A DNA stretch of 64,000 nt from Mobula hypostoma (lineage: Eukaryota). How positions within the stretch are numbered: the first letter of the stretch is position 1; each line of letters begins with the position of its first letter. Position numbers and translations under genes: made by a program. The stretch spans positions 113,462,001-113,526,000 of the forward strand of contig NC_086107.1 in NCBI RefSeq assembly GCF_963921235.1, written 5' to 3'. This document shows, piece by piece, positions 1,031-57,690 of this stretch. A model generated the notes under the pieces. That model did not search any database. It was not told the DNA's origin and was given only the letters and a program-made list of their open reading frames with translations.

Positions 1031-1121
1031 CTGGAAGTTGCCGCCATAGGTAGAATTCAGCTCATAAAAGAATTTGCCAGGGTCGGGTATGGACAGCCAA
1101 CGGGGAGTCTTCTTTCTGGAT
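1031..1121 (-). CDS. il2rb: IL2RB-like Box1 exon: (R)SRKKTPRWLSIPDPGKFFYELNSTYGGNFQ
   Basis: Acceptor tgtctttag|A, donor CAG|gtgagt, 91 nt (phase 2 to 0). IPDPGKFF..L...GG..Q closely parallels the JAK1-binding Box1 of IL2RB (TPDPSKFFSQLSSEHGGDVQ). Confidence 0.93.
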
Positions 1122-1829
1122 CTAAAGACAATCAAATTCCTCATTAGGACAATGGGTGAAAGGGATGAGCAACGGAGAAGGGTGGAGAGGTGGTGGAAAA
1201 CAGCATCGAGCACAAAGGAAAGGGGATGTAGAGGAAGAAGCAACACATACAGAATGCTGGAGGAACGCAGCTGTTCAGGAACCATCTATGGAAAGGAATA
1301 AACTGTTGACATTTTGGGCTGGGACCCTTCAGCTACTTATTCTCTTCCATAGATGCTGCCGGACCTGCTGAGTTATAGAACATAGAACATCTCTGCAACG
1401 TGCAGGCCATTCGGCTGTGATGTTGTGCTGACCTTTTAACCTACCACAAGGCCAATTTAACCCTTCCCTCCTACATAACCCTCCACTAGCCTAAAACTAG
1501 AGGGTATAGATTTAAGGTGAGAAGGGGAAGGGCCTGAAAAGGAGCTGAGGGACACAGAGGATGGTGGATATAAGGTACAAGTTACCAGAGGAAGGGGTAG
1601 AGGTGGGTACAACACTAATGTTTAAAAGACATTTGGACAGGTACACAGCTAGGAAAGCGTCAGAGGGATATGAGCCACATACAGGCAACTGAAACCGGCT
1701 CAGGTGGCTAACTTAATCAGCGTGATAAGTAGGGCCTGTTTTCAGGCAGTATAACTCGATGGGCTTGTTAAGAAAAGCTGAAGAACTTGCATGTTCTATC
1801 ACAAGTGCTGACCGGTTTCATTTATTATG

Positions 1830-2815
1830 GTCAACACAACACAATCGTTCCCTCGAATCTAATCAACCAGCTCCAAAGCCTGGGCCTCTGTAGCTCCCTC
1901 TGCTACTAGGTCCTCAGCTTCCTCAGTGGGAGTCCACAGTCTGGGCGGATCGGAAACAATGTCTCCTCCTTGCAGACGGTCAACACTGGCGCATCATGGA
2001 TGTGCATTTCAGCCCGCTGCTCCACTCTCTCCACACCCATGGGTGTGTGGCCGGGCACAGCTCAAGCAACATCTATCAATCTGCTGATGCCACAACTGTC
2101 TCTTGTCGCTGGCAGAATTTCAGGTGGTGACGGGGAAGCGTACAGGAGGGGTTAGATCAGCTGGCTTACTGGTGTCACAACAACAACCTTACACACAGTG
2201 TCAGTGACACCAAGGAATCGATTGTGAACCTCAGGGTGGGGGAGGGAAGGGAACTAACACCAGTCCCCATCGAAGAGTCTGCGGAGGCAGCAGTGAAAAG
2301 GATGAGCAGCTTCGAGTTCCAGGGTGCCAACACCTCTGAGTACCCAACATATTGATGCAATCACAAAGAAGGCACCACAGCAGCTATATTTCATTAGGAA
2401 TTTGAGGAGATTTGGTTTGTCACCAAAGAAGCTCACAGATTTCGACAGGTGCCCTGTGGAGAGCATTCTAACTGGTCACAACACTGTCTGGTGTGGAGGG
2501 GCCTTCTGCACAGGATCAGAAAAAGTTGTAGAAAGCTGTAAACCCAGCCAGCCCCATCATGGGCACCAGGCTCCCCAGCATGCAGGACACCTTCAAAAAG
2601 TGGTATCCATCATTAAAGACCCCCATCAGCCAGGACATGCCCTCTTCTCATTACTACCATCAAGGAGGAGGTACAGGAGCCTGAAGACACACACTTAATG
2701 TTTCAGGAACAGCTTCTTCCCCTCCATCATCCGATTTCTGAATAGACAATGAAACCATGAAAACTTCCTCACTATTTTTCCTCTCTTTTTGTACTATTTA
2801 TTGAATTTATTTTTT
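1830..2815 (+). mobile_element. Rex1/Babar-type non-LTR retrotransposon, degenerate 3' part
   Basis: ORF 2324-2698 contains LYFIRNLRRFGLSPKKLTDFDRCPVESILTG...HPGHALFSLLPSRRRYRSLKTHT, typical of the Rex1 RT C-terminal region. Confidence 0.8.
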
Positions 2816-3250
2816 TTATATACAGTGGATTCCACTTAATTGGGCCATTGGTTAATTGGGGCAGCACTTATTTGGAACAACTCTGAAAAGTCAAGGTTAC
2901 ATCAAGTCTGACAGGGGTTGCTGGGCGGTGCAACTCAAAGGGCCGTTTCATGCTGCATCTCTAAATAAGTAAGTAAACTTTTAAAAACAGAACAAAAACG
3001 AATCGAGGAAATAGCTAGTATTTCCTTTGTTTATTTTGGACACTATGCTGTTTAATTGGGGCAGGAGACTGTTGCGAAAATGTTTCTAATTAGTGTCAGT
3101 TGTATGTGCTTGTGTAGCCATTATACAAACAACGTGCTTCGAGTGACCGGCTTTTAAATAGCATCGATTGCGTGTGTTTGTGTTCAAAAGGCAGCAATTT
3201 TTGTCACTGGTGAATGCAGCAGGCCAGGCAGCATCTCCAGGAAGAGGTAC

Positions 3251-3286
3251 AGTCGACGTTTCGGGCCGAGACCCTTCGTCAGGACT
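3251..3286 (-). ncRNA. Minimal type I hammerhead ribozyme motif
   Basis: AGTC-CTGACGA-stem II-GAAACGTC-GACT on the minus strand: intact core, 4-bp stem I, palindromic ACGT stem III. Confidence 0.75.
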
Positions 3287-3357
3287 AACTGAAAGAAGAG
3301 CTAGTAAGAGATTTGAAAATTTGAGATTCATATCTCTTACTAGCTCTTCTTTCAGTT

Positions 3358-3393
3358 AGTCCTGACGAAGGGTCTCGGCCCGAAACGTCGACT
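3358..3393 (+). ncRNA. Minimal type I hammerhead ribozyme motif
   Basis: AGTC CTGACGA AGGGTCTCGGCCC GAAACGTC GACT. Confidence 0.75.
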
Positions 3394-4179
3394 GTACCTC
3401 TTCCTAGAGATGCTGCCTGGCCTGCTGCGTTCACCAGCAACTTTTATGTGTGTTGCTTGAAATTCCAGCATCTGCAGAATTCCTTGTGTTTGTAATTTTG
3501 TCACTGATAGTTGGTGAGAAATCAGCAGGAAGACAATTCAGAACCGTTTTGCTCACTGGAGTTTCAAGCTTTCAGGCTATTTCACTACTTCAACAAGTAA
3601 GGAACGGTGAAGAACTTGAAGGTATCAACAATCATCTTGAATGTTGCAATGAAAATGAAGATTTGGTAGCTGCAAACGTCGAAAGGGTTGTATTACTGTC
3701 CATTATTTGCACCAGGTGTCTGCGTTGATTTTATTCATTTACAATCAAAAGAATGCGGCATAGATGAATTCCTCTGTCGATAACTATTAGGAACTAATAT
3801 ACAGTTTTATAGCACTGTAGTAGTATTGATAGTGCTCTAATTTGTTCTGTATTTCACTTAAATACATAATTTGTCTTTTTAACTATTTCCATGAAACTTC
3901 AGCTAATTGGGGCGACCATTTAATTGGACCAAAATGTACTGGTCTGGATGTGCCCCAATTAATCAAATTCCACTCTATGTATTTATAGTTCATATTGTAG
4001 ATTATAGTTTCAATTATTATCTATTGCAATGTACTGCTGCCACAAAACAACAAATTGCACAGCATGTGCTAGTGATATTGTGCACATTAACAGATCTCCT
4101 GACTGTGTGGGGTCGATGCACCTTCCTCTCTACCTCCCCATTGTTACCACGAACAAAAGCATCTTACAAGTTGCACAAT

Positions 4180-4570
4180 TTGGGGTGACCTCATTGAAAC
4201 CTATCCAATGGTGAAAGGCCTTGATAGAGGGGATGTGGAGCGGATGTTTCCCATGGTGGAAGTATTTATGACTGGAGGACACAGCCTCAGAATAAGGGGC
4301 CTCCTTTTAGAACGGAGATGAGGAGGAATTTATTTCACCAGAGAGTGGAGAATCTGTGGAATTCATTGCCACAGACACAGCCAAGTCTTTACAAATATTT
4401 AAGGCAGAGGTTGATAGATTCTTGGTTAGTCAGGTCTTGAAGGGATACGGGCAGAAGGCAGGAGATTGGGGCTGAGAGGGAAATGGATCAGCCATGATGA
4501 AATGGCAGAGCAGACTCGATGGGCCAAATGGCCTAATTTTGCTCCTATATCTTCTGGTGTTCTGGTCTAA
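4180..4570 (+). mobile_element. CR1 LINE 3' fragment
   Basis: Degenerate GDLIETY..VKGLDR.DVERMFP..GHSLRIRG..FRTEMRRN..QRVENLWNSLP, followed by the CR1 3' UTR (GGGCCAAATGGCCT) and tail. Confidence 0.8.
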
Positions 4571-4742
4571 TTTTCACCTGGAGGTTAAACCAACTGGACA
4601 TTTGTAAACGTAGACAACACACCTCAGGCAGAGAGGGAGTTGCTCTTAGCATTTGAAATCCAGAAGTAAACAGAAAATCTCTTCAGTATCAAAACATCAG
4701 CACCTAATTTCACTTCTACCAGGTGTTCTGGGGTCATCTTAC

Positions 4743-4836
4743 CTTCTTATGACCAGCTTCCCAATGAGCAGAATGGCAACGGCAAACAGGATTCCACTCA
4801 GTAAGAGGGCGATCCACAGGTCTCCAGTGAATTTAC
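4743..4836 (-). CDS. il2rb: IL2RB-like transmembrane exon: (G)KFTGDLWIALLLSGILFAVAILLIGKLVIR
   Basis: Acceptor ccttcttccag|GT, donor AG|gtaaga, 94 nt (phase 1 to 2). About 20 hydrophobic residues followed by basic residues. Confidence 0.92.
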
Positions 4837-4871
4837 CTGGAAGAAGGTAGCAAAAACAGTTCGGTGAAACA

Positions 4872-5028
4872 AATCCCTTACTCACTCTTCCTTCAGTTAG
4901 TCCTGACGAAGGGTCTCGGCCTGAAACGTCGACTGCGCCTCTTCCTATAGATGCTGCCTGGCCTGCTGCGTTCACCAGCAACTTTGATGTATGTTGCTTG
5001 AATTTCCAGCATCTGCAGAATTCCTGTT
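4872..5028 (+). mobile_element. Young Penelope-derived short insertion with hammerhead motif (4899-4934)
   Basis: Perfect 13-bp TSD GTTCGGTGAAACA (4859-4871, 5029-5041). Hammerhead motif AGTC CTGACGA AGGGTCTCGGCCT GAAACGTC GACT. Confidence 0.88.
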
Positions 5029-6328
5029 GTTCGGTGAAACAGCAGGTCGGTCCATGTGCCCAGGAGATAAACTAGCTTTAACTGAGTACGTTAACAATGC
5101 TTTTCCAGTGAGCAAGCAAGTCTCAGGGTTGTATAATTTATACATTCTTTGATAATAACTGTACTTGGATCTTGAACCATCCAACCGAGACTGAAGTCCC
5201 ACAAATGCAAGATGAGATTTTGCCTTCAAAAAGGCAGCATCCATCATTAAGCACTCTCACCACCCAGGACATGCCCTCTTCTCAATGCTACCACCAGGGA
5301 GGCCCCCTCCTCTGCCCCAGAGGAGCCTGAAGACACGCTCAACTATTGTGTATTTAATATTTCAATAATATTTGCGTAATCTTGAATAGTTTGATTAAGC
5401 ATTCTTGTCCATTTGAATAATTCATTACGGTTTATATGTAAAAATGCATTAACTGCATATGCCATCACACCTCTACGTGATACATGCTGAACTCACTTTA
5501 GGTAAACACGATCTACACCCATATCTCAGGCTCCCTGCATCTTCATTTGAATTAGTTTAATGTTTTGAAGTTACAACGTTTTAGGAACAGCCTCTTCCCC
5601 TGCGCTATCAGATTTCTGAGTGGACAACCCCTTGATCACTACCTCAGTGTAGTTTTTTGTTCTCTTTTCGCTTTGAACTTCGAACTTTGAAATGTTAACG
5701 CGGCTGATAATCTGCTGGAGGAGCTCAGACGCTAAACAGTGTCCGTGAGGGAAGGGAACTGTCGGTATTTCAAATTTCAAAGTAAATTTATCAACAAAGA
5801 ACATGTGTGTCACCGTATACAACCCTGAGATACATTTTCTTGAGGGCATTCACAGTAGAACGACGAATCAATGAAAATAAAGAATCAATAAATACCGAGA
5901 ACATGAGAAACCCTGCTTGGGGACTAAGAGTGGAAAAGGCGGTTGGCCTGCTATAACGAGCGGGAGCTGAAACGGCGCCAATGGCTGAATGGTGGTGAAG
6001 ATGATAGACAGATCCAGGATCAAATTTATTCACCAGATGAGTTTACATGAATTAATAATTCGCTGTGGTGTGTTGACTCCACACGTAACAAGAAGGCACC
6101 ATTATGAAGAGAAAAGAATTATATAAAATTAAGTTAGAAGTATGGATTTGGAATAAAATGTACATAATTACATTAAAATCAGCATGCATTTACAATGTGA
6201 ACAGCGTTATAAAAATGGATCATAATGACTATAACATTGAATCATATTGATTACAACGTCGCATTGGAATTCACGGCTGTAGAGCCCAAGTCATTGAGTA
6301 TATTTAAAGCAGAGTTTGATGGTTTCTT

Positions 6329-6607
6329 GTGTTGGCGCGTGGCCAAGTGGTTAAGGTGTTCGTCTAGTGATTTGAAGGTCGCCAGTTCGAGCCTTGGCTG
6401 AGGCAGTGTGTTGTGTCTTTGAGCAAGGCACTTAACCACACAGTGCTCTGTGACGAAACCGGTGCCAAGCTGCGTGTTCCCTTGGACAATGTTGGTGGCG
6501 TGGAGAGGAGAGACTGCTGGTCTTCCATACAACCTTGCCCAGGCCTGCGCTCTGGAAACTTTCCAAGGCGCAAATCCATGGTCTCATGAGACTAACGGAT
6601 GCCTATA
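6329..6607 (+). mobile_element. tRNA-derived SINE inserted into a CR1 3' fragment (~6255-6765)
   Basis: A box TGGCCAAGTGG, B box GTTCGAGCC, 12-bp TSD TGATGGTTTCTT. Related copies at 53933-54237 and ~49035-49245. Confidence 0.85.
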
Positions 6608-6959
6608 TGATGGTTTCTTACTTAATCAGGGCATCAAAGGTTACAGGGAGAAGGCAGGATTGAGGTTGAGAGGGATGATAAATCAGCCTTCATGTAATGG
6701 TGGAGCAGACTCGATGGGCCGAATGGCCTGATTCTGCTCCTATGTCTTATGGACTTTTGGTCTTCAGTCCCACCATTTTTTTGAAATGTATATTTTGCTA
6801 GAGGTGACTTCGAACTCAGTGGCCAACTGCACGGTCACTAACTGTGTGTGTTGTGAGCTGGTTGTTCATTCCCTGGTAAGATCTGGGCTAATGCACTCGG
6901 GTGGCATGCCATATGCCTACTCTACAGACTATTGCTGATTTAGGTAATTCCCACTTTAC

Positions 6960-7149
6960 CAGTTGCAGCTTTGGATTTCTGAGTTTTCCATTTCAGTGCC
7001 TGGCTCCATTTGCTCCAGATGCTCTTGTAATTCTTACTGTCCAGAATTCTCACTCGAATCTGGGTCACGTAGGAGGAGTCGGCCTTCAAATTGGACAGGT
7101 CGATTTGTATTCTTCTTTCGTTTTGCTGGATCAGATGCTTCTTGGCATT
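6960..7149 (-). CDS. il2rb: IL2RB-like exon, D2 second half with WSxWS: NAKKHLIQQNERRIQIDLSNLKADSSYVTQIRVRILDSKNYKSIWSKWSQALKWKTQKSKAAT
   Basis: Acceptor ccgattccag|AAT, donor G|gtaaag, 190 nt (phase 0 to 1). Contains L-x4-Y-x-x-Q-I-R-V-R and WSKWS. Confidence 0.93.
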
Positions 7150-8093
7150 CTGGAATCGGAACGTTTGACAGAGTCAGTAAAAGTGGAGACGATTTCAGGC
7201 AGAATGACAAGCCACTGCAGTGGTTACAGAATACAAGACAACCCCGCCCTCCCATCGGGCCGAAATGGCGGGTTCCAGCATTAGCGAGGTTGTGGAAGTG
7301 GTGGCAAAGGAAGGAATTAGGCAATATCCAGGCAAGAAAGGTTTGCAGATAGTCTGCAGTCAATCCTGGTAAGAAAGATCTTTGAAGGGCCTCACTTCCT
7401 TTTGTACAGCAGGGGACGGGAGCCACTGCTGCACAAAAGAGAGACAAGATGAGGAGTTAATGGAAGGATGCAAGGCATACACCAAAGAAGGGACAATTAC
7501 TTTATTAACTTCAAAGTATCATCGGTTATCCTATAGTTTCTGTTGACTTTTAGCACTGCTATTGTGATTGGCGGCTGATCATGCAAATAAGGAATTCGAA
7601 CATACACAAGATTGCCAAATGGTCAATATCCGTAACTGCATGTCACTTCTGTATAAAAATAGCACTAACCTACTCAGTGTGGTTACTGGGGCCGGGCTGT
7701 TCTCCTTGAATGCAATTAATAATGTGTGATCGAGGAATGAATGCAAGTTTTCAGGGTCCAGTTAATTGATGATGACAAGGTGACGAATGCATTGACAGGC
7801 TTGGAGTTCTCGCCTGAGACAGAGATGGTTTCTGAGGAGACACTACAACAGATTTGGGGCACAGTACGTCAGGTATAGGTTCCTCCTCCCGAGATTGTGG
7901 GACAGGGACCTTGCGTGATGTTTTTATTTGCTCCTCACAGTTTTCTCCTCTAGTAGTTTCCTTCTCTCTCAGGAGATCACGTGAAGGAGTGGACGGTAAA
8001 TGACTTCTGATGAGAGTGAGTGGCAGAAGAATGGAGTCTGAGAGCGAGAGAAAGAAAGAGAGAGTGTGTGACTGGAAGGGCTACTGGCAATCA

Positions 8094-8285
8094 GGACCAA
8101 TGGGAACTTCACTGGGAATTAGGACCAATGGCAACTCTATTAGGAATTAGGACCAATGGGAACTCTACAGGGAATTAGGACCAATGGGAGCTCTACTGGG
8201 AAATAGGACCAATCGAACTCTACTGGGAATTAGGACCAATGGGAACTCTACTGGGAATTAGGACCAATGGGAACTCTACTGGGAG
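8094..8285 (+). repeat. 28-bp minisatellite x ~7 (GGACCAATGGGAACTCTACTGGGAATTA)
   Basis: Tandem units are directly visible. Confidence 0.9.
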
Positions 8286-8955: not shown

Positions 8956-9101
8956 TTTCCAGGGCTCAGTCTCGAGCTTGTATCGAATCTCGAATTCCAT
9001 TTTATCGGCGAAAAGAAGTTCGTGTTTAGTCTGCCAGGACAGTTCAATCATGGTGTCAGTATCATTGACCACGTTCAAGTTGGACGGAGGCTGGAGCTGG
9101 A
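8956..9101 (-). CDS. il2rb: IL2RB-like exon, D2 (FN3) first half: (I)QLQPPSNLNVVNDTDTMIELSWQTKHELLFADKMEFEIRYKLETEPWK
   Basis: Acceptor ttgttcatag|TC, donor AAA|gtaagt, 146 nt (phase 1 to 0). PPxNL...LSW...EFEIRY...W is an FN3 pattern. Confidence 0.93.
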
Positions 9102-9118
9102 CTATGAACAACAAAAAG

Positions 9119-20676: not shown

Positions 20677-23600
20677 CATAGAGTGGGTGTGGAGAGGATG
20701 TTCCCTACAGTGACGGGAGTCTAGGACCAGAGGACACAGATAGAGTGGGTGTGGACAGGATGTTTCCTATAGTGGTGGGAGTCTAGAACCAGAGGGTACA
20801 GATGGAGTGGATGTGGAGAAGATGTTCCCTACAGTGGTGGGAGTCTAGGACCAGAGGGCACAGATAGAGTGCATGTGGAGAGGATGTTTCCTATAGTGGG
20901 GGAGTCTAGGACCAGAGGACACAGATAGAGTGGGTGTGGAGAGGATGTTTCCTGTAGTGGGGGTGTCTAGGACCAGAGGGCACAGACGGAATGGATGTGG
21001 AGAGGATGTTTCCTATAGTGGGGGAGTCTAGGACCAGAGGACACAGATAGAGTGGATGTGGAGAGGATGTTTCCTATAGTGGGGGGAGTTTAGGACCAGA
21101 GGGCACAGATAGAGTGGATGTGGAGAGGATGTTTCCTATAGTGGGGGAGTCTAGGACCAGAGGACACAGATAGAGTGGATGTGGAGAGGATGTTTCCTAT
21201 AGTGGGGATGTCTAGGACCAGAGGGCACAGATAGAGTGGATGTGGAGAGGATGTTTCCTATAGTGGGGGTGTCTAGGACCAGAGGGCACAGATAGAGTGG
21301 ATGTGGAGAGGACGTTTCCTCTGGTGGGGGAGTCTAGGACCAGAGGACACAGATAGAGTGGATGTGGAGAGGATGTTTCCTGTAGTTGGGGAGTCTAGGA
21401 CCGGAGGGCACAGATAGAGTGGATGCGGAGAGGATGTTTCCCATTGTGGGGGGATTCTAGGACCAGAGGGTACCGATAGAGTGGATGTGGAGAGGATGTT
21501 TCCTATACAGGGGAGTCTAGGACCAGAGGACACAGATAGAGTGGATGTGGAGAGGATGTTTCCTATAGTGGGGTAGTCTAGGACCAGAAGGTACCGATAG
21601 AGTGGATGTGGAGAGGATGTTTCCTATAATGGGGAGTCTAGGACCAGAGGACACAGATAGAGTGGATGTAGAGAGGATGTTTCCTATAGTGGGGGGAGTC
21701 TAGGACCAGAGGGTACAGATAGAGTGGATGTGGAGAGGATGTTTCCTATAGTGGGGGACTCTAGGACCAGAGGGCACAGATAGAGTGGATGTGGAGAGGA
21801 TGTTTCCTGTAGTTGGGGAGTCTAGGACTGGAGGGCACAGATAGAGTGGATGCGGAGAGGATGTTTCCCATTGTGGGGGGATTCTAGGACCAGAGGGTAC
21901 CGATAGAGTGGATGTGGAGAGGATGTTTCCTATACAGGGGAGTCTAGGACCAGAGGACACAGATAGAGTGGATGTGGAGAGCATGTTTCCTATAGTGGGG
22001 GAGTCTAGGACCAGAAGGTACCGATAGAGTGGATGTGGAGAGGATGTTTCCTATAATGGGGAGTCTAGGACCAGAGGACACAGATAGAGTGGATGTAGAG
22101 AGGATGTTTCCTATAGTGGGGGGAGTCTAGGACCAGAGGGTACAGATAGAGTGGATGTGGAGAGGATGTTTCCTCTGGTGGGGGAGTCTAGGACCAGAGG
22201 ACGCAGATATGAGTGGATGTGGAGAGGATGTTTCCTATAGTGGGGGGAGTCTAGGACCAGAGGACACAGATAGAGTGGATGTGGAGAGGATGTTTCCTGT
22301 AGTGGGGGAGTCTAGGACCAGTGGGCACAGGTAGAGTGGATGTGGAGAGGATGTTTCCTATAGTGGGGGAGTCTAGGACCAGAGGACACAGATAGAGTGG
22401 ATGTGGAGAGGATGTTTCCTGTAGTGGGGGAGTCTGGGACCAGTGGGCAAAGATAGAGTGGATGTGGAGAGGATGTTTCCTATAGTAGGGGAGTCTAGGA
22501 CCAGAGGACACAGATAGAGTGGATGTGGAGAGGATGTTTTCTATAGTGGGGGAGTCTAGGACCAGAGGGCACAGATAGAGTGGGTGTGGAGAGGATGTTT
22601 CCTGTAGTGGGGGTGTCTAGGACCAGAGGGCACAGATAGAGTGGATGTGGAGAGGATGTTTCCTGTAGTGGGGGGAGTCTAGGACCGGAGGGCACAGATA
22701 GAGTGGATGCGGAGAGGATGTTTCCCATAGTGGGGGGATTCTAGGATCAGAGGGTACCGATAGAGTGGATGTGGAGAGGATGTTTCCTATACAGGGGAGT
22801 CTAGGACCAGAGGACACAGATAGAGTGGATGTGGAGAGGATGTTTCCTATACTGGGGGAGTCTAGGACCAGAGGACACAGATAGAGTGGATGTAGAGAGG
22901 ATGTTTCCTATAGTGGGGGGAGTCTAGGACCAGAGGGTACAGATAGAGTGGATGTGGAGAGGATGTTTCCTCTGGTGGGGGAGTCTAGGACCAGAGGACA
23001 CAGATATGAGTGGATGTGGAGAGGATGTTTCCTATACTGGGGGGAGTCTAGGACCAGAGGACACAGATAGAGTGGATGTGGAGAGGATGTTTCCTGTAGT
23101 GGGGGAGTCTAGAACCAGTGGGCACAGGTAGAGTGGATGTGGAGAGGATGTTTTCTATAGTGGGGGAGTCTAGGACCAGAGGACACAGATAGAGTGGATA
23201 TGGAGAGGATGTTTCCTGTCGTGGGGGAGTCTAGGACCAGAGGGGACAGATAGAGTGGGTGTGGAGAGGACGTTTCCTATAGTGGGGGAGTCTAGGACCA
23301 GAGGACACAGATAGAGTGGATGTGGAGAGGATGTTTCCTGTAGTAGGGGATTCTAGGACCAGTGGGCACAGATAGAGTGGATGTGGAGAGGATGTTTCCT
23401 ATAGTGGGGGAGTCTAGGCCAGAAGGTACCGATAGAGTGGATGTGGAGAGGTTGTTTCCTATAATGGGGAGTCTAGGACCAGAGGACACAGATAGAGTGG
23501 ATGTAGAGAGGATGTTTCCTATAGTGGGGGGAGTCTAGGACCAGAGGACACAGATAGAGTTGATGTGGAGAGGATGTTTCCTGTAGTGGGGAGTCTAGGA

Positions 23601-26600
23601 CCAGTGGGTACAGGTAGAGTGGATGTGGAGAGGACGTTTCCTCTAGTGGGGGAGTCTAGGACCAGAGGACACAGATAGAGTGGATGTGGAGAGGATGTTT
23701 CCTGTAGTGGGGGAGTCTAGGAGCAGTGGGCACAGATAGAGTGGATGTGGAGAGGATGTTTCCTATAGTGGGGGGAGTCTAGGACCAGAGGACACAGATA
23801 GAGTGGATGTGGAGAGGATGTTTCCTGTAGTTGGGGAGTCTAGGACCGGAGGGCACAGATAGAGTGGATGCGGAGAGGATGTTTCCCATTGTGGGGGGAT
23901 TCTAGGACCAGAGGGTACCGATAGAGTGGATGTGGAGAGGATGTTTCCTATACAGGGGAGTCTAGGACCAGAGGACACAGATAGAGTGGATGTGGAGAGG
24001 ATGTTTCCTATAGTGGGGTAGTCTAGGACCAGAAGGTACCGATAGAGTGGATGTGGAGAGGATGTTTCCTATAATGGGGAGTCTAGGACCAGAGGACACA
24101 GATAGAGTGGATGTAGAGAGGATGTTTCCTATAGTGGGGGGAGTCTAGGACCAGAGGGTACAGATAGAGTGGATGTGGAGAGGATGTTTCCTATAGTGGG
24201 GGACTCTAGGACCAGAGGGCACAGATAGAGTGGGTTTGGAGAGGATGTTTCCTATAGTGGGGTAGTCTAGGACCAGAAGGTACCGATAGAGTGGATGTGG
24301 AGAGGATGTTTCCTATAATGGGGAGTCTAGGACCAGAGGACACAGATAGAGTGGATGTAGAGAGGATGTTTCCTATAGTGGGGGGAGTCTAGGACCAGAG
24401 GGTACAGATAGAGTGGATGTGGAGAGGATGTTTCCTATAGTGGGGGACTCTAGGACCAGAGGGCACAGATAGAGTGGGTTTGGAGAGGATGTTTCCTATA
24501 GTGGGTGTGTCTAGGACCAGAGGGCACAGATAGAGTGGATGTGGAGAGGATGTTTCCTGTAGTTGGGGAGTCTAGGACCGGAGGGCACAGATAGAGTGGA
24601 TGTGGAGAGGATGTTTCCCATTGTGGGGGGATTCTAGGACCAGAGGGTACCGATAGAGTGGATGTGGAGAGGATGTTTCCTATACAGGGGAGTCTAGGAC
24701 CAGAGGACACAGATAGAGTGGATGTGGAGAGGATGTTTCCTATAGTGGGGGAGTCTAGGACCAGAAGGTACCAATAGAGTGGATGTGGAGAGGATGTTTC
24801 CTATAATGGGGAGTCTAGGACCAGAGGACACAGATAGAGTGGATGTAGAGAGGATGTTTCCTATAGTGGGGGGAGTCTAGGACCAGAGGGTACAGATAGA
24901 GTGGATGTGGAGAGGATGTTTCCTCTGGTGGGGGAGTCTAGGACCAGAGGACACAGATATGAGTGGATGTGGAGAGGATGTTTCCTATACTGGGGGGAGT
25001 CTAGGACCAGAGGACACAGATAGAGTGGATGTGGAGAGGATGTTTCCTGTAGTGGGGGAGTCTAGGACCAGTGGGCACAGGTAGAGTGGATGTGGAGAGG
25101 ATGTTTCCTATAGTGGGGGAGTCTAGGACCAGAGGACACAGATAGAGTGGATGTGGAGAGGATGTTTCCTGTAGTGGGGGAGTCTGGGACCAGTGGGCAA
25201 AGATAGAGTGGATGTGGAGAGGATGTTTCCTATAGTAGGGGAGTCCAGGACCAGAGGACACAGATAGAGTGGATGTGGAGAGGATGTTTCCTATAGTGGG
25301 GGAGTCTAGGACCAGAGGGCACAGATAGAGTGGGTGTGGAGAGGATGTTTCCTGTAGTGGGGGTGTCTAGGACCAGAGGGCACAGATAGAGTGGATGTGG
25401 AGAGGATGTTTCCTGTAGTGGGGGGAGTCTAGGACCGGAGGGCACAGATAGAGTGGATGCGGAGCGGATGTTTCCCATAGTGGGGGGATTCTAGGATCAG
25501 AGGGTACCGATAGAGTGGATGTGGAGAGGATGTTTCCTATACAGGGGAGTCTAGGACCAGAGGACACAGATAGAGTGGATGTGGAGAGGATGTTTCCTAT
25601 ACTGGGGGAGTCTAGGACCAGAAGGTACCGATAGAGTGGATGTGGAGAGGATGTTTCCTATAATGGGGAGTCTAGGACCAGAGGACACAGATAGAGTGGA
25701 TGTAGAGAGGATGTTTCCTATAGTGGGGGGAGTCTAGGACCAGAGGGTACAGATAGAGTGGATGTGGAGAGGATGTTTCCTCTGGTGGGGGAGTCTAGGA
25801 CCAGAGGACACAGATATGAGTGGATGTGGAGAGGATGTTTCCTATAGTGGGGGGAGTCTAGGACCAGAGGACACAGATAGAGTGGATGTGGAGAGGATGT
25901 TTCCTGTAGTGGGGGAGTCTAGGACCAGAGGGCACAGGTAGAGTGGATGTGGAGAGGATGTTTCCTATAGTGGGGGAGTCTAGGACCAGAGGACACAGAT
26001 AGAGTGGATGTAGAGAGGATGTTTCCTATAGTGGGGGGAGTCTAGGACCAGAGGGTACAGATAGAGTGGAAGTGGAGAGGATGTTTCCTCTGGTGGGGGA
26101 GTCTAGGACCAGAGAACACAGATATGAGTGGATGTGGAGAGGATGTTTCCTATAGTGGGGGGAGTCTTGGACCAGAGGACATAGATAGAGTGGATGTGGA
26201 GAGGATGTTTCCTGTAGTGGGGGAGTCTAGGACCAGTGGGCACAGGTAGAGGGGATGTGGAGAGGATATTTCCTATAGTGGGGGAGTCTAGGACCAGAGG
26301 ACACAGATAGAGTGGATGTGGAGAGGATGTTTCCTGTAGTTGGGGAGTCTAGGACCGGAGGGCACAGATAGAGTGGATGCGGAGAGGATGTTTCCCATAG
26401 TGGGGGGATTCTAGGACCAGAGGGTACCGATAGAGTGGATGTGGAGAGGATGTTTCCTATAGTGGGGATGTCTAGGACCAGAGGGCACAGATAGAGTGGA
26501 GGTGGAGAGGATGTTTCCTATAGTGGGGGGAGTCTAGGACCAGAGGGTACAGATAGAGTGGATGTGGAGAGGATGTTTCCTCTGGTGGCGGAGTCTAGGA

Positions 26601-28747: not shown

Positions 28748-29145
28748 GCCTCAAAATACAAAGATGCCCCTTTAGAACAGAGATGAGGAAGGATTTCTTT
28801 AGCTGGACGGCTGTGGAGGCCAAGTCATTTGGATATATTTAAAACAGAGGTTGATAGGTTCCTAGTTAGTCAGGGTGTCAAAGGTTACGAGGAGAAGACA
28901 GAAGAATGGGGTTGAGAGGGATAATAAATCAGCCATGATGGAATGGTAGAAATGACAAAGCAGACTCGATGGGCTGAATGGCCTAATTTGGTTGCTATGT
29001 ATTATAGTCTTATATTTCTTATTGTAACCTATAGTCATTTTTAAATACATTGTGCTGTACTGTTGCCACAAAGCAAGTTTCACACCATACGTCAGTGATA
29101 ATGAACCCGATTCTGATGCTGCTCAACTGGCTGCCTTCCACTTAC

Positions 29146-29315
29146 TATTATACTTAGGAACGAAGGCGTGAATCTTCGCAGCTTCGATCTTCGATCCGTC
29201 CCTGTTGCACAGCAGTGTGATGTTGAATTTCTGAGCCGCAGCGAAGTACTTAAAGGTAATCGTGCAGCTCTTCTCCTGCGCATTTTCCGGGCTGCAGTTT
29301 TTCGGGAAACCTTTC
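29146..29315 (-). CDS. il2rb: IL2RB-like exon, D1 second half: (E)KGFPKNCSPENAQEKSCTITFKYFAAAQKFNITLLCNRDGSKIEAAKIHAFVPKYN
   Basis: Acceptor ctttctgtgtcttaaag|G, donor A|gtaagt, 170 nt (phase 2 to 1), open frame not shown in the ORF track. Three Cys and an F-x-P-x-x-N ending, as in IL2RB (FKPFEN). Confidence 0.9.
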
Positions 29316-36466: not shown

Positions 36467-36587
36467 TCATTCTGCTTGAATTCATCCACTCGCACTTCAC
36501 ACCGAGAACTGCCTTGGGAAACATTCTGTGACCAGCAGCAGGTCATCAGGTTGTTGTAATCCACCAGGCACTGCAAATCTTTGTTTC
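36467..36587 (-). CDS. il2rb: IL2RB-like exon, D1 first half: NKDLQCLVDYNNLMTCCWSQNVSQGSSRCEVRVDEFKQN
   Basis: Acceptor ttcttttcatcag|GA, donor GA|gtatgt, 121 nt (phase 1 to 2). Has the C-x9-C-x-W class I cytokine receptor signature. Confidence 0.9.
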
Positions 36588-39500
36588 CTGATGAAAAGAA
36601 AAAATGGAGACCAGTTATGTGAGATCCGTCAATACAACTCAGAATTCCAAAGCCCTTCTCCCACATCATGAAGTGACCCCAACAACGACATTTCCTGGTG
36701 GAATTAATTGACCAATCTGACAATTAAAAAATGGATACATACCGCATTTATATCCAAGGTTCAAGGACCAGAAGGAGACAGCAAAGATAATTAGGCTGGT
36801 TCTTTTCATCTTCTGGTACTTCTGGAAAACATGAAGGAAAGAGACTCATTATCACTCCCCTGAACTTGAACCACATTTCCTTCCTGGGTGTTAGATACTC
36901 AAAGCTGGACCAGACAGAGACTGAAAAGGCCTTGACCAGGCAAACAGTGATGAGAGGGAAAACAGAGTGACAATTCATCTCCACGTCTTGCAAATGGGAA
37001 TATGTGGAGAACTTGTTATTATGATGGAAATAAGTCATTGAGCTGAGATAATGAGCAGTGAAGCTTTAAAGAGACGTGAGGTCTATAACGGTGCATTATT
37101 ACAATGACTTGGAGAGATGAAACTTTGACAAACTTCTATAGATGCGCGGTGGAGAGTATCCTCACTGGTTGTATCATGACCTGGTATGGAAACACCAATA
37201 CCCAACAATGGAAAGGTCTACAGAAAGTGGTGAATACAGCCCAGTCCACCCCAAGCAGAGCCCTCCCCACCGTTGAGCACATCCACAAGAAGTGTTTCCT
37301 CAAGAAAGCAGCATCCATAATCAAGACTATGTTTTTCTGCCACTGCGGGACAGCTTGCTCAACCAGACCGGTCAACTCACGCTGACTTGAGTGTATCTCT
37401 ATGTTACATTCACTGTTCTATTTATTATAAATTATTATACATTACTACGATTGCACATTGCACATTTAGACGGAGACATAACGTAAAGATTTTCACTCCT
37501 CATGCAGGTGAAGGATGTAAGAAATAAAGTCAATTCAAATTCAATTCAGTTCAATTTAATTCAATTCAATTCAATTTCTCTATTCTACTGTGACTGCCTG
37601 TAAGGAAATGAACCTCAAAGTAGTACATGCTGACATATACGTACAGCACCTTCATAATAAATTTACTTTGAGCTTTTGAACTTTGAGCTTTTTCTCGGTA
37701 TCCAGTGGAATGGAGAACAAGGGGTTTGGGGTTATTCCCTGGCAATATAAAGCTCAAGAGCGGGGATTCGGAACCTGGGGTTCACGGACTCCTTGCTTAA
37801 TGGTGTTAGCCCGTGGCAGGAGAAAGGGAAACCCCTGCTCCAGAGGGAATTGTGAGTGGATGTGAGGTTGAACTTGGAACACTGTTAGCCTTGCAGCGAG
37901 AAGTGTGTAGGTTTACCACGTGCCTAAGTTATGAGGGAAGATCAGATAAAGTAGAGCATTATTGCACGGAATTTAGAAGAACAGCTTTTTGATCTAGCAG
38001 AAGTTTTAAAGATAAAATAGAAAATCTGTGAGCAAGAAGACAAAATGGACGCCTCAAAGTCTCTGCACCAGTTTTGAAGGGCACTGAAGAAGGAAGATGG
38101 CCTTCATTAGTCGGTGGATTGAGCTAAGAGTCATGAAGTAATATTGCAGCTCTATAAAACTCTGGTTAGGCCACACTTGGAATATACGTAGATGAAAGAA
38201 ACGTGGAGAGTTATGCAGGAGGGAAGGGTTAGATCGATGATGAAGTAGATTAAAAGGTTGGTACAACAGCACGTACCAAGGGACCCGTCCTGTGCTGTAA
38301 CTGTTCTGTGTTCCTTATTAAAATGCATGATGGCTTTTACTTGGCCACAGGTCACCATTATTGAACAGGAATGGCCTTGCGAGGTAACTGACTTCCTCCT
38401 GTTCCATCCTAGTCCCTGTTGTCTTCTTTAGGACCTTAACCTGCCTGTCCCACCCATCCCGAACCACAAGTAGTCCTCTGCCTCCATCTTCCAGCCCCAC
38501 CCTCAGCTTCTTTCCTCCAAAACTGACATCCAAGTGACATGCACTGAAACTTCATCCTGCTCCCTATCTTCCCCTTTTCCTAAATTCCTCATCTGCTTTT
38601 TGTCTCCTCTCTGCTCCCCCAACTCTGAGAATTCTCCACAAATGTCTGTAGCCTCCTCAGGAGTGAAGACCCGGGGCTAAACAGAACGGTGGCCCACTCT
38701 CCCTCCTGCTTCTTGTTGGAGCTCTTCCGAATCCCGTCATCCACCTCATCACGGTGGTCCCACCATCAGGGGCATCCCTGCAACTTAGAATCACTCAGCC
38801 TCCTCTACCCTGGCCTTCCTTGTCAATCCTCCAGCGCTCGCCCCAGCTGAATGTCATTGCTTGAGATCAGCTTCTGACGTGCAGTAACTGAAAACTGTTG
38901 GCCCCCATCCAGAACCGCTGAAGTCCCATCAGTCACTTTGCACCGTGCTTTCATGGTACAAGCTTGAGGAGAACAAAGAATAAAATGATAAACAGGAACT
39001 ATTTATCAAAATAGACTGGCCATTGACTTCTAAGTGTGGCATTTCATCAAAGCATCTAACAGCACAGGAAGCTGAACACTGACTCCTGTGCGATGTGTAA
39101 ACACCACTGTGAGGTGTTGACACAGCTTAGACAAAGCTAGGTTTCAACGGTCTTTATGTTCTATGATAAAAGGCGTAGTTCGAGTGGACAGCCAGAGCCT
39201 TTTGCCCCTGGGTGGAAATGGCTAATACAAGGGGGCATAATTTGAAGGTGTTTGGAGGAAAGTGTAGGGGGGAGGTGTGATACCAGAGGTAATTTTGTTT
39301 TAAACAGAGAGACGCGGGTGTGTGGAAAACCCTGCCAGGGATGGTAGAGGCAGATACATTAAGGACAGTTCAGATAGACACATGGATGAGTGATAATGGA
39401 GGGTTATGTGGGAGGGGAGGGTGAGGTTGATTTTGGAGTCGGTTAAAAGGTCTGCACAACATTCTGGGCTGAAGGGCCTGTACTGAGCAGTACTGTTGTA

Positions 39501-44356: not shown

Positions 44357-45187
44357 CCAGGATCTCAGGGGGTGAGACCCAGGATCTCAGGGGGCAAGAC
44401 CCAGGATATGACCCGGGATCTCAGGGGGTGAGACCCACGATGTGACCCAGGATATCAGGGGGTGAGACCCACGATGTGACCCAGGATCTCAGGGGGTGAG
44501 ACCCACGATGTGACCCAGGATCTCAGGGGGTGAGACCCAGGATGTGACCCAGGATCTTTGGGGTGAGACCCAGGATGTGACCCAGGATCTCAGGGGGCGA
44601 GACCCACGATGTGACCCAGGATCTCAGGGGGCAAGACCCATGATGTGACCCAGGATCTCAGGGGGTGAGACCCAGGATGTGACCCAGGATCTCAGGGGGT
44701 GAGACCCACGATGTGACCCAGGATCTCAGGGGGTGAGACCCAGGATGTGACCCAGGATCTCAGGGGGCGAGACCCAGGATGTGACCCAGGATCTTTGGGG
44801 TGAGACCCAGGATGTGACCCAGGATCTCAGGGGGCGAGACCCACGATGTGACCCAGGATCTCAGGGGGCGAGACCCATGATGTGACCCAGGATCTCAGGG
44901 GGTGAGACCCAGGATGTGACCCAGGATCTCAGGGGGTGAGACCCACGATGTGACCCAGGATCTCAGGGGGTGAGACCCAGGATGTGACCCAGGATCTCAG
45001 GGGGCGAGACCCAGGATGTGACCCAGGATCTTTGGGGTGAGACCCAGGATGTGACCCAGGATCTCAGGGGGCGAGACCCACGATGTGACCCAGGATCTCA
45101 GGGGGCGAGACCCACGATGTGACCCAGGATCTCAGGGGGCGAGACCCAGGATGTGACCCAGGATCTCAGGGGGTGAGACCCACGATG
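44357..45187. repeat. 34-bp minisatellite x ~24 (CCCAGGATCTCAGGGGGTGAGACCCACGATGTGA)
   Basis: Tandem units are directly visible. A 33-bp CTTTGGGG variant recurs every 237 bp. Confidence 0.95.
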
Positions 45188-53150: not shown

Positions 53151-53932
53151 ACATTATTTCACCACTTTTTCTTTTGCTCTGCTTATTTAATTTAACTATT
53201 ACTGTAACTGACAGTATTTTCTCTATAATTATGTATTGCACTGTACTGCTGCCACAAAACAACGAATGTCATAACATATGCCAGTGACATCCAACCTGAT
53301 TCTGAATCGATTCATCATTTCCATATTTGCTGCCTGACCTGCTGAGTTCCTTCAGAATCTTGTGTGCGTTGCTCAAGATCTCCAGCATCTACAGCGTCTC
53401 TTGTGCTCACTATTTGGTAATCAACCTGCTGCGCTCTGTCAAATCTTGATGAAATCAGTGGTCTTGGAACTCTACTCTCAAAGTTACTTCTGAGAAATTT
53501 TGAACCGTTTTCCTTCGTTTTTTTCTTTCAGAAACATTGGGTGTTTCCAAACAGCAGCCATTACTATCAACTCTGGTTCTAAGCACAGATCCAGAAGAGA
53601 TAAAGCGATTCACAAGAATGCAGAAGATTAAGCTGCGATTTGCCTGATGCAGTTAAGCTGATCAAAGAACCGGATAGGATAAATAAAAATAAAGAACTTC
53701 ATCTGGTGGGAAGTTCCATGCAAGATCTTCAATGATAGCCCAGATACTGGTTAATAGGGTTGTATTAATAATTAACAGGACACAACAGTAGTGTGGCGGT
53801 TAACATAGAACATAGCAATTTACAGCACATTACAGGCCCTTTAGCCCACAATGTTCTGCCGACTATGTATCCTACTCTAGAAACTGCCTAGAATTTCCCT
53901 CTATTTTTCTAAGCTCCATTTACTTATCACGT

Positions 53933-54237
53933 GTGGGCACGTGGCCAGGTGGTTAAGGCATTCGACTAGCCTTCGTGAGCTCGAGCCCCAGCAGAGGCAA
54001 CGTGTTGTGTCCTTGAGCAAGGCACTTAATCACACAGTGCTCTGCGACGACACTGGTGCCAAGCTGTATCGGCCCTTGCCCTTCCCTTGGACAACATCGG
54101 TGTCGTGGAGAGGGGAGATTTGCAGCATGGGCACCTGCTGGTCTTCCGTACAACCTTGCCCAGGCCTGCGCCCTGGAGAGCGAAGACTTTCCAGGCACAG
54201 ATCCATGGTCTCACAAGACTAACGGATGCCTAAAATA
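53933..54237 (+). mobile_element. tRNA-derived SINE (family of 6329-6607)
   Basis: TGGCCAGGTGG A box and the shared body, ending GACTAACGGATGCCTA. Confidence 0.8.
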
Positions 54238-57200
54238 TGAACCTATCTAAGATGCTGTTAAAAGACCCTGTTGTATCCGCTTCCACCACCGCCGCTGGCA
54301 GTGCATTCCACACACCCACCACTCTCTGTGTGGAAAACTTAACCCTGATATCCCCTCGGTACCTATTTCCAGGCACCTTAAAACTATGCTCCCTCCTGTT
54401 AGCCACAGCTTGGCGCGTTCCAGCGTTCAGAGTTCAGTCCCGGTGCCGTACTGTGAGTAGTCGCTCTCCATCTTCCCCGTGGAACGCGTCGATTTTCTCC
54501 AGGTTCCCCCACAACCCCCACCCCGAATTCCTCCCACAGTCCAAAGATATACCGGGCAGGTTCATCGGTGATTGTAAATTGCCCCGGGATGAGGTTAGGG
54601 TTAGCTGGGTTTGTCAGAGGTTGCTGGGGCGGTGGAGTTCAAAGGGCTGGGAGCACCCACCACCCTCTGCGTGTAACAACTTGCCTCATAGAGCACCTTT
54701 AAACCTCCCCCCCTCTCACCTTGCAGCTATTTGACATTTCCACCCTGGAAATGCACCCCTGAGTACCCATCCTCTTGAATGATCAAATGGGGCGGGGGGA
54801 CCGAATGACGTTCTACGATCTCCTGAACACAACTCAATAGCGGAAAGCCGGCCCAGCCACAGAAAGAAACTACTTGAGCAGGACGGTAAAGAGAGGACAG
54901 CTGTAAATTCAGACTGCTGAGAGACGTTTGAAGCTGCTTGCCTGAATCAGTCATCTCGTGAATTTCAACAGGTCCTAAAGTTATAGATTTTTATTTATTT
55001 ATTGGAAGAGAGTGCGGAATAAGCTCTTCTGGCCCTTCGAGCCCAGCAAACTCCAAATTAACTCTCCTCTAATTACAGTGACCAATGGACCCACCAACCC
55101 CGAAGTCTTTGGACTGTGGGAGGAAACGGGAGCACCCGGAGGAAACCCACGCGGTCACAGGGAGAACGTACAAACTCCTCATAGACAGCAGTGGGCTCCC
55201 ACTCTCTCAGTAAACAGAAAACCTTATTCACTGTTTATCCTCCGCATCACCCCTGTTTTTGCACGATGAGAGACACTCGCCCTGTTCACACACACACCCA
55301 ACCTCAAACTTAACACATTTCCGAGGGATTCTGCAGATGCTGGAAATCCAGAGCAACGCACACAAAGTGCTGGAGGAACACAGCAGGTCAGGCAGCGTCG
55401 ATGGAAATGAGTAAGAAGTCAATGATTTGGGCCGAGACCCTTCATCGGGACTTGAAAGGAAGGGAGAAGATGCCAGAATAAGAATGTGGGGAGAGGGGAA
55501 GGAGGGTAGCTAGAAGATGATAGAATCATGGAGTCATAGAAAAATACAGCACAGAAACAGGCCCTTTGGCCCATCTATCCCATTCTGAACCATTTAAACA
55601 GCTTAGTCCCATTGACCTGCACCAGGACCATAGCCATGCATACCCTTCCATCCACATACCTACCTAAGCTTCTCTCAACGTTGAAATCGAGCTCGCATGC
55701 ACCACTTGCACTGGCAGCTCGTTCCACACTCTCATCACCCTCTGGGTGAAGAAGTTTCCCCTCATGTTCTTTCACCTTTCACCCTTAACCTGTGACTTTA
55801 TCGTAGTCCCACTCAACCTCATGGAAAAAAAGGCTGCTTGCATTTACCCTATCTATATCCCTCATAATTTTGAATGCCTCTATCAAATCTCCCCTCAATC
55901 TTCCACATCAAATAGGCTGAATTTGGAGTATCATGTGCAGTTCTGTTCACCTACCTGCAGGAAAGATGTAAATAAAGTTGAAAGAGTGCAGAGAAAATTT
56001 ACAAGGGTGCTGCTGGCACTTGAGGAGTTCAATTACAGGGAAAGGTTGAATAGGTCAGGACTTTATTACCTGGGGTGCAGGAGAACGAGAAGAGATCTTG
56101 ATAGCATTTGTGACCTGTTTCTCTCTCTGCCTCTCTATGGAGGCCTACAAAATTACCAGGACTATCAATAAGGAGAACACATACAGGTCTTTTCCCTTCA
56201 GGTTGGGCGAGACTAGAAATCAAGGCCATAGGCTTGGGGTGAAAGGTGAAGTATTGAAGGGGAATCTGAGGTGAAACGTCTCCACTCAGAGGAAAACAAG
56301 CTGCCGACAAAAGCGGCAGATGCAAGACCAATCGTATCCATTTAAGAGGAGTCTGGATAGGAGGGGTATGGAGGGATATGGAATATGAGATGAACAGTCC
56401 TTGAAAGTGAGACCATAGGTTGTGGGAACAGTTAAATGATGGGGTGAGTGACGTTATCCCCTCTGGTTCAGGAACCTGATGGTTGAGGGGTAATAACTGT
56501 TCCTGAGCCTGGTGGTGTGGTGTCCACTGGGTCCACTGTTCTGGTAGGTTTGGATTTCATTTGCCTCCTTCCACCTTCAGTACCCCTTACACATCTCTTA
56601 CTATTATTTCCTATCCTTCGACTGCTCCTGCATCAATTGGTCTACAGAATCCCATCAGAGACCTTCCTTTCCCTTGGGTACCACAGTAGCGTAGCGGTTA
56701 GTGTGACGTCATTACAGCTCGGGGCGTTACAGTTAAATCGGGGGGTTGATGGGCAACGAGGCTTGAAGGGCCGGAAAGGCCTACTGCACGCTGTATTTCA
56801 ATAAATATTCAGGGAATCAAGGAATATGGGTCCCTACAGGCAGTGGTGCTGAGATAGAAAATCAGCCATAATCCGATCGAATCAGTGAGCAGGTAGACAG
56901 CTGCTCTTTTACCTTATGTTTTCACACCCCTCTTTGTTTTTATTCTCTGTGGGGTGGCAGTGCCTTACTTTTCCAAGGTCAGGTTGAACAAGTCCTGCCC
57001 ACAAAACAATCAGAAAGCTCCTCTGACGGCCTCTCCCGCTTAACTGACTGTCGAACCATTCTAATGATTTGAATGCTACTGATATATCCCGAGCATCTCT
57101 ACATATTAAAAAAAACTATGAGGGAGGGGGATAGTGGGAAGGTTCTCAGAAGCGGGAGGTGATAGATGACGGTGATAAAGAGTTGAAGATGGTGTTATCA

Positions 57201-57614
57201 GATAGACGCATGGACTAAAAGGAAGGAGGTGGGGAGGGGGAGCCAGTGGGAGGAGTAAGTGGATGGAGAGGCTGGGGGAGAATAGAAAGGGTGATGTGGA
57301 GGAGAGAGAGATGAGCGAAGGGGCTGAGGGGGATCAGAGAAGAGAGGAAAGAAAGAAGAGAGGAAAGAAAGAAGAGAGGGGAGATCAGGAGGAGAAAGAA
57401 GAGAGAGAAAGGACAGAGGGAAATAGGTCACTCTTTGTGTAGCCCCACTAGTGCGGACCCAGGCTGAATATGGGTACAGTAGTGGGGTCCCATATAGCTG
57501 TTGCTAGGGCACACTGCACGCCTGCCTCCTATGTGTACCACCTGGAACTCAGCGTATGATTATTCTGAAGTGTGAAGATGAAAATGTTCGGCCCCTGCTT
57601 GCACTTGTGCTCAC

Positions 57615-57690
57615 TTGGGCTATGTTTAGACCCAGAGTCAAAGATGAAAAAGCACACCAATATGGGTAAGCTGATATAAATATGAAACAT
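57615..57690 (-). CDS. il2rb: Probable first coding exon (signal peptide) of IL2RB-like receptor: MFHIYISLPILVCFFIFDSGSKHSP+1 nt
   Basis: ATG at 57690, a hydrophobic core, and a donor A|GTGAGC in phase 1. This matches the phase-1 start of the 36587 exon (A+GA=Arg). It sits in non-repetitive DNA next to lymphoid promoter-type motifs. No transcript evidence. Confidence 0.6.

What the first reader, a model, noticed from the sequence alone, without database searches (positions are those of the whole stretch)
1031..57690. Hidden IL2RB-like cytokine receptor gene assembled from seven small minus-strand exons across ~57 kb
Seen in sequence: all exons have GT-AG ends, and the phases chain perfectly (1,1-2,2-1,1-0,0-1,1-2,2-0) into signal peptide, D1, D2/WSKWS, TM and Box1. 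Two exons lie in frames the ORF track misses. Established: this exon/phase layout is that of class I cytokine receptors, and the six-Cys D1 and the PDPxKFF..L...GG..Q Box1 fit IL2RB better than IL21R, IL9R or CSF2RB. Inference: a chondrichthyan IL-2/IL-15 receptor beta chain, relevant to the early evolution of IL-2/15 signalling. Whether it is the orthologue or a lineage-specific paralogue cannot be seen here.
Basis: partly seen in the sequence, partly recalled or inferred. Interest (0 to 1): 0.7.

Follow-up and report, generated by a model that had tools for sequence, protein, structure and literature searches.

The report
Ray IL-2 receptor beta gene, known
This window holds most of the ordinary interleukin-2/15 receptor beta chain gene (IL2RB) of a ray, already annotated in public databases; six of the seven proposed exons are right, the proposed first coding exon is not, and the protein likely signals as the mammalian one does.

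Summary
The gene is real and is the IL2RB orthologue, but it is neither hidden nor new. Six of the seven exons check out, with GT-AG ends and the stated phases. The proposed signal exon (57690-57615) matches no homologue. The true one is 36821-36743 (ATG 36809), 155 bp from exon 2. The terminal exon lies 7.5 kb left of the last window exon. The corrected eight-exon frame gives 563 aa, identical (563/563) to a public record named IL2RB-like, and 14 chondrichthyan homologues already carry that name. Trees join them with bony-vertebrate IL2RB (98/99; 96/93 under a mixture model). AU tests reject IL21R and IL9R but not CSF2RB. CSF2RB is a separate four-domain gene just upstream and TMPRSS6 lies just downstream; both are in the human IL2RB band 22q12.3. 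The IL2RB-type tail motifs NQGY and YLSL are present. Two assembled contigs of about 3.6 kb fit a spliced transcript. The 57.6-kb segment may be a non-coding first exon (untested). Verdict: already known, low interest.

The parts
36743..36821 (-).
36467..36587 (-). Coding exon 2, D1 first half (C-x9-C-x-W), phases 1-2, 121 nt; intron from exon 1 is 155 bp
   Evidence: Pfam IL2RB_N1 E 0.0032, below cut-off
29146..29315 (-). Coding exon 3, D1 second half, phases 2-1, 170 nt
8956..9101 (-). Coding exon 4, D2 first half (FnIII), phases 1-0, 146 nt
6960..7149 (-). Coding exon 5, D2 second half with WSKWS, phases 0-1, 190 nt
   Evidence: contigs of runs X1, X2 begin their match exactly at 7149
4743..4836 (-). 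Coding exon 6, transmembrane helix, phases 1-2, 94 nt
   Evidence: helix 231-262 in the model of P0002
1031..1121 (-). Coding exon 7, Box1 (IPDP at residue 274), phases 2-0, 91 nt
1..1030 (-). Start of the last intron (7488 bp). It runs out of the window to terminal coding exon 8, which lies OUTSIDE the window at G000:C45:113455542-113454730 (L002:3542-2730, minus strand): 270 codons plus stop, with NQGY (Y356), Y391 and YLSL (Y548)
57615..57802 (-).

Best explanation
The minus strand carries seven of the eight coding exons of the IL2RB (CD122) orthologue of a ray, a 563-residue class I cytokine receptor that likely serves as the beta chain of the IL-15/IL-2 family receptor. Shown: signal peptide, two-domain ectodomain with WSKWS, one transmembrane helix, Box1, and a long tail with the tyrosine motifs NQGY and C-terminal YLSL; position between CSF2RB and TMPRSS6. 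Inferred from mammalian IL2RB, not tested in any shark or ray here: it pairs with the common gamma chain on T and NK-like lymphocytes, binds IL-15, IL-2-like or IL-15L presented on IL-15R-alpha, activates JAK1 through the membrane-proximal region, recruits Shc at NQGY and STAT5 at the two later tyrosines, and so drives lymphocyte survival and proliferation.
For: Corrected frame is open for 563 codons and 563/563 identical to P0181, named IL2RB-like by NCBI. The terminal exon retrieved 14 proteins, all 14 chondrichthyan and named IL2RB or IL2RB-like. In a profile search the best hits after the four chondrichthyan ones are coelacanth, lungfish and gar IL2RB. Tree of 59 rows: chondrichthyan plus bony IL2RB 98/99; 32-row mixture tree 96/93; AU p 0.0025 against IL21R and 0.0028 against IL9R. 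NxGY in 13 of 13 chondrichthyan and 30 of 61 bony IL2RB-clade rows, 0 of 61 IL21R/IL9R/CSF2RB rows; C-terminal YLS(L/I)-type motif 13 of 13, 26 of 61 and 0 of 61. CSF2RB maps 61 kb upstream and TMPRSS6 29 kb downstream, same strand; an MPST-like gene lies 3.4 Mb away; these genes are listed with IL2RB in human 22q12.3 (PMC4131128, one passage). Only one strong locus in the genome (a floor). Contigs of 3623 and 3639 nt from two studies fit a spliced mRNA. Y338-Shc and Y392/Y510-STAT5 roles from PMC5877680 (passages); the mapping of these numbers onto the ray motifs is recalled and agrees with the alignment to platypus IL2RB.
Against: The ectodomain alone does not pick IL2RB: by sequence against PDB, CSF2RB and IL21R chains score above IL2RB (62.4, 51.8 and 47.7 bits). 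Pfam IL2RB_N1 stays below its cut-off (21.5 of 31 bits). In the fold search IL2RB (Z 20.1, rmsd 2.1, 191 aligned) is tied with IL-9R-alpha (Z 19.7). AU tests do not reject a grouping with CSF2RB (p 0.19; p 0.098). No functional data for the ray protein.
Confidence: 0.96

Rival explanations
1. The gene is an IL21R or IL9R orthologue, or a chondrichthyan paralogue of those, named IL2RB-like by automatic annotation.
For: IL21R chains score slightly above IL2RB in the PDB sequence search; Box1 pattern shared with 18 of 18 IL21R rows; IL-9R-alpha tied in the fold search.
Against: AU p about 0.003 for both. A separate locus on contig C36 matches the chondrichthyan IL9R/IL21R-like protein P0071 best. 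Tail motifs and neighbours are those of IL2RB.
Confidence: 0.015
2. The gene is a lineage-specific, one-module duplicate of the adjacent CSF2RB that took on IL2RB-like features.
For: Tandem position 61 kb from CSF2RB; top PDB sequence hits are CSF2RB; AU tests do not reject the grouping (p 0.19 and 0.098).
Against: The free trees put it with IL2RB at 98/99 and 96/93. NxGY and YLSL occur in 0 of 18 CSF2RB-clade rows but are shared with coelacanth, lungfish and platypus IL2RB. CSF2RB has its own complete four-domain gene next door. The CSF2RB stem is a long branch, so the AU test has little power there (inference).
Confidence: 0.015
3. One reading: the 57690-57615 exon supplies an alternative signal peptide spliced in frame to exon 2.
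For: Frame stays open when joined to exon 2; the peptide is the most hydrophobic of 13 candidates and the donor is good; DNA is single-copy with a promoter-like motif cluster just upstream.
Against: No homologue or isoform record seen starts with it (0 of 13; 0 of 12 isoform N-termini). An out-of-frame ATG lies 16 nt upstream in a better context. 13 such candidates arise in 61 kb.
Confidence: 0.07

Closest known systems
P0181, public record 'interleukin-2 receptor subunit beta-like isoform X1 [Mobula hypostoma]' (XP_062919002.1)
   Same: 563 of 563 residues identical to the corrected eight-exon model, same N-terminus
Chondrichthyan IL2RB(-like) records (Mobula birostris, Hemitrygon, Pristis, Narcine, skates, sharks, Callorhinchus)
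   Same: Same architecture and motifs; 540/563 identical to M. birostris P0002, about 39% to Callorhinchus
   Different: Sharks have a longer D1 loop and tail insertions
Bony-vertebrate IL2RB / CD122
   Same: Tree sister group; WSxWS, Box1, NQGY, terminal YLSL; CSF2RB, TMPRSS6 and MPST neighbourhood; ectodomain fold Z 20.1 to human IL2RB
   Different: Only about 23% identity in the structural alignment; below the Pfam IL2RB_N1 cut-off; D1 second half is one 170-nt exon here, whereas human IL2RB has one more coding exon there (recalled, not checked); CSF2RB is the immediate neighbour, while in human other genes lie between (recalled)
IL21R, IL9R and CSF2RB (group 4 class I cytokine receptors, PMC1963337)
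   Same: Cytokine-receptor homology module, WSxWS, exon-phase pattern (recalled), Box1
   Different: Separate clades; lack NxGY and terminal YLSL (0 of 61 rows); CSF2RB has two modules

Membership tests
Class I cytokine receptor | Conserved D1 cysteines with C-x-W and WSxWS in D2 | tested here: met
   C29, C39-x-W41; WSKWS at 213
Class I cytokine receptor | Signal peptide, single TM helix, Box1 | tested here: met
   Exons 1, 6, 7; helix 231-262 in the model. No signal-peptide predictor was run; judged by hydrophobicity and homology
Class I cytokine receptor | Two-FnIII fold of the ectodomain | tested here: met
   Model of P0002 (96% identical), top match 7s2s_B Z 20.1, rmsd 2.1, 191 aligned
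IL2RB (CD122) orthologue | Groups with bony-vertebrate IL2RB apart from IL21R, IL9R, CSF2RB | tested here: met
   98/99, 96/93; AU rejects IL21R and IL9R, not CSF2RB
IL2RB (CD122) orthologue | Neighbourhood with TMPRSS6, CSF2RB, MPST/TST | tested here: met
   human band list in PMC4131128. C1QTNF6 not found nearby (a floor)
IL2RB (CD122) orthologue | Tail tyrosine motifs NQGY and terminal YLSL | tested here: met
   Y356 and Y548; census
IL2RB (CD122) orthologue | Pfam IL2RB_N1 (PF18707) over curated cut-off | tested here: inconclusive
   21.5 bits of 31, E 0.00036; ray CSF2RB scores 24.6; precomputed hits exist for Narcine, Mustelus, Callorhinchus homologues
IL2RB (CD122) orthologue | Binds IL-2/IL-15 with gamma-c and activates JAK1/STAT5 | not testable with these tools
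   Inferred from PMC5877680 and PMC7658486 (passages)
IL21R / IL9R | Tree placement in those clades | tested here: not met
   AU p 0.0025 and 0.0028
CSF2RB (beta common) | Two tandem cytokine-receptor modules (four domains) | tested here: not met
   One module only; the four-domain gene is the neighbour

The most novel reading that the evidence does not exclude
It carries an ETS/RUNX/GATA-like cluster and two upstream ATGs: one short uORF and one that overlaps the main ATG when spliced to the signal exon, but gives an alternative in-frame signal peptide when that exon is skipped. Splicing would then tune translation and targeting of the IL-15 receptor chain in rays.
Probability: 0.12. Interest if true: 0.3.

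Novelty: already known. Interest (0 to 1): 0.1.

Why it matters
Little as a discovery: the protein is on record letter for letter and IL2RB is annotated across sharks, rays and the chimaera. What this check adds is modest. It gives tree, motif and synteny support that the records called 'IL2RB-like' are true orthologues. It shows a compact CSF2RB-IL2RB-TMPRSS6 order in a ray. It shows that the Shc- and STAT5-type tail motifs date to the jawed-vertebrate ancestor. This bears on the debate about IL-2/IL-15 signalling in cartilaginous fish, which in the passages read concerns IL-2 and IL-2R-alpha more than the beta chain (PMC6238376).

Tried and rejected
Box1 pattern and D1 cysteine count as IL2RB markers: rejected. 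Pfam searches of the own genome that found nothing near the locus, and are floors only: C1q for C1QTNF6, Sec7 for CYTH4, PX for NCF4, SEA (which missed the TMPRSS6 later found by the trypsin model), IL2RB_N1 (which missed this very gene), IL15 ligand family (nothing rang anywhere, uninformative). No run is on record as RNA ('no RNA holder listed'; kind is a guess). The joints table was swamped by repeats, with 1128 rows not shown. P0180, the shorter isoform record, begins inside exon 2 in a shifted frame and gives no alternative first exon. Paper searches for a study of chondrichthyan IL2RB listed none by title; subscription journals are mostly not covered. Supplement searches of PMC3964593 (1 file) and PMC1963337 (8 files) gave no hits for IL2RB terms; figures and picture tables are not readable, so they may still hold it. 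No earlier scan finding nearby. No complex prediction was run, as no ray ligand was in hand.
Full report
Observation. A scan of the minus strand for AG...GT exons with open frames recovered six of the seven exons as described: 36587-36467, 29315-29146, 9101-8956, 7149-6960, 4836-4743 and 1121-1031, with phases 1-2, 2-1, 1-0, 0-1, 1-2 and 2-0. The window lies at G000:C45:113462001-113526000 in a 3.48-Gb genome. In the left flank the predicted phase-0 terminal exon is present at G000:C45:113455542, behind a 7488-bp intron. It starts KWI and runs 270 codons to a stop.

The first exon is wrong. The terminal exon retrieved 14 proteins, all chondrichthyan and all named IL2RB or IL2RB-like. Searching the genome with the closest one (P0002) hit window 36741-36809 at 96% for residues 1-23. 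This is an exon 36821-36743 with a clean acceptor, ATG at 36809 and a phase-1 donor 155 bp before exon 2. The corrected model is 1692 nt and 563 aa without internal stop. It is identical at 563 of 563 residues to P0181, which NCBI names IL2RB-like isoform X1 of Mobula hypostoma. The coding span is about 44 kb.

Transcription. No run was on record as RNA; seven guessed-RNA contig sets from two studies were listed. Four were laid on window 900-7800. In X2 one 3623-nt contig matches 7149-6955 without mismatch. It starts exactly at the exon 5 acceptor and ends five bases past the donor, where the intron (GTAAAG) and exon 6 (GTAAAT) part. In X3, another organism code and study, a 3639-nt contig matches 7146-6955 with 4 differences. 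The depth figure of each contig (19.5 and 15.3) recurs at position 1090 in exon 7, 6 kb away, which a 3.6-kb contig can only span if spliced. The implied 3' UTR lengths (1789 and about 1747 nt) fit an AATAAA 1695 nt after the stop. From the printed coordinates, 130 and 188 nt of 5' sequence remain beyond the true signal exon, so a non-coding first exon likely exists; its place was not tested.

Orthology. A profile of 13 chondrichthyan proteins found 699 representatives, of which the best 150 were listed. I looked up names for 22 of the unnamed ones. The best non-chondrichthyan hits were coelacanth, lungfish and gar IL2RB. Trees used about 310 residues around the membrane-proximal WSxWS. Of 163 proteins, 136 were kept; 27 short, fragmentary or motif-lacking ones were dropped, coelacanth among them. 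The quick tree split 75 IL2RB-side rows from 61 IL21R/CSF2RB/IL9R rows (SH-aLRT 97). A careful tree of 59 rows that I picked from it gave chondrichthyan plus bony IL2RB 98/99, with the chimaera as the first branch among chondrichthyans. A 32-row mixture-model tree gave 96/93. Group labels for unnamed rows come from the quick tree. AU tests rejected a grouping with IL21R (p 0.0025) and IL9R (p 0.0028) but not with CSF2RB (p 0.19; p 0.098). The tail gives evidence independent of the tree. NxGY is in 13 of 13 chondrichthyan, 30 of 61 bony IL2RB-side and 0 of 61 other rows. A terminal YLS(L/I)-type motif is in 13 of 13, 26 of 61 and 0 of 61. The ectodomain alone is ambiguous. PDB sequence hits rank CSF2RB and IL21R above IL2RB, Pfam IL2RB_N1 is below cut-off, and the fold search puts IL2RB first (Z 20.1, rmsd 2.1, 191 aligned) but tied with IL-9R-alpha (Z 19.7).

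Neighbourhood. A four-domain receptor lies upstream on the same strand. Ray CSF2RB proteins map onto it along their whole length, G000:C45:113599724-113559657, at about 57-90% identity per exon; it ends 61 kb before the IL2RB ATG. Downstream, trypsin-domain exons belong to TMPRSS6, which starts at 113425707, 29 kb after the IL2RB stop. An MPST-like gene lies 3.4 Mb away on the same contig. CSF2RB, IL2RB, MPST and TMPRSS6 are listed together in human 22q12.3 (PMC4131128, one passage); the order within that band is recalled. The genome search showed one strong locus; the weak hit on C36 is closest to a chondrichthyan IL9R/IL21R-like protein.

Mechanism. The anatomy is shown; the function is inferred from mammals. 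IL-2 and IL-15 signal through IL-2R-beta with gamma-c and activate STAT5. Elephant shark IL-15, IL-15L and IL-2-like sequences are cited in PMC7658486 (passages), and IL-15R-alpha is reported in cartilaginous fish (PMC3894449, PMC6238376; passages). JAK1 binds the beta chain, Y338 recruits Shc, and Y392 and Y510 bind STAT5 (PMC5877680, passages). The ray tail has Y356 in NQGY, Y391 and Y548 in YLSL at the positions of tyrosines in platypus IL2RB; equating them with the human numbers is recalled. The likeliest role is the shared beta chain for IL-15-family cytokines presented on IL-15R-alpha to lymphocytes. A search for the ligand family in this genome was uninformative.

The 57.6-kb segment. 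It is single-copy, has a good donor, and holds the only ETS/RUNX/GATA-like cluster in the 61 kb between CSF2RB and the signal exon (0.065 expected in 200 mononucleotide shuffles). The motif set was recalled and chosen after I saw the sequence, so this is a lead only. The 130-188 nt of unexplained 5' sequence would put a start near 57744-57802, around that cluster. If spliced to the signal exon, its two ATGs make a 22-codon uORF and a 49-codon frame overlapping the main ATG. None of this was tested with reads.

Literature. Seven searches listed no paper devoted to chondrichthyan IL2RB. PMC6238376 reports no IL-2 or IL-2R homologue in shark transcriptomes, and its discussion concerns the alpha chain (passages). 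PMC3964593, PMC9857879, PMC9465101 and PMC1963337 were seen as passages only. The gene is nonetheless annotated in public databases for many species.

Verdict. Real gene, right family, orthologue supported, one exon corrected and one added. Already known; interest 0.1.

Noticed in passing
   Followed up: yes
G000:C45:113605193-113605320 (L017), plus strand: An inverted, broken partial copy of the first ectodomain exon of CSF2RB about 5 kb upstream of that gene.
   Followed up: no
window 20678-28748: 8-kb tandem array of a 61-bp unit (132 copies, 89% matches) inside the 20-kb intron between coding exons 3 and 4; the unit resembles the 3' end of the LINE-type repeats seen all over the region (impression, not tested).
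   Followed up: no
window 44376-45187 and 60693-61958: Further minisatellites (34-bp x 24; 42-bp x 30); the 42-bp one produces many false exon-like open frames.
   Followed up: no
window 57776-57783 and surroundings: ETS-, RUNX- and GATA-like motifs clustered 160 bp upstream of a good splice donor at 57615; candidate lymphoid promoter and non-coding first exon of IL2RB.
   Followed up: partly
G000:C36:98824505-98824672 (L032), minus strand: WSKWS exon of another group-4 receptor, closest to chondrichthyan proteins named IL9R-like or IL21R-like; in the trees these (P0071, P0155) fall on the IL9R side although one is named IL21R.
   Followed up: partly
P0180 versus window 36524-36468 and 29313-29164: The shorter public isoform record starts inside exon 2 in a shifted frame; it looks like an annotation by-product of a splice variant.
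   Followed up: partly
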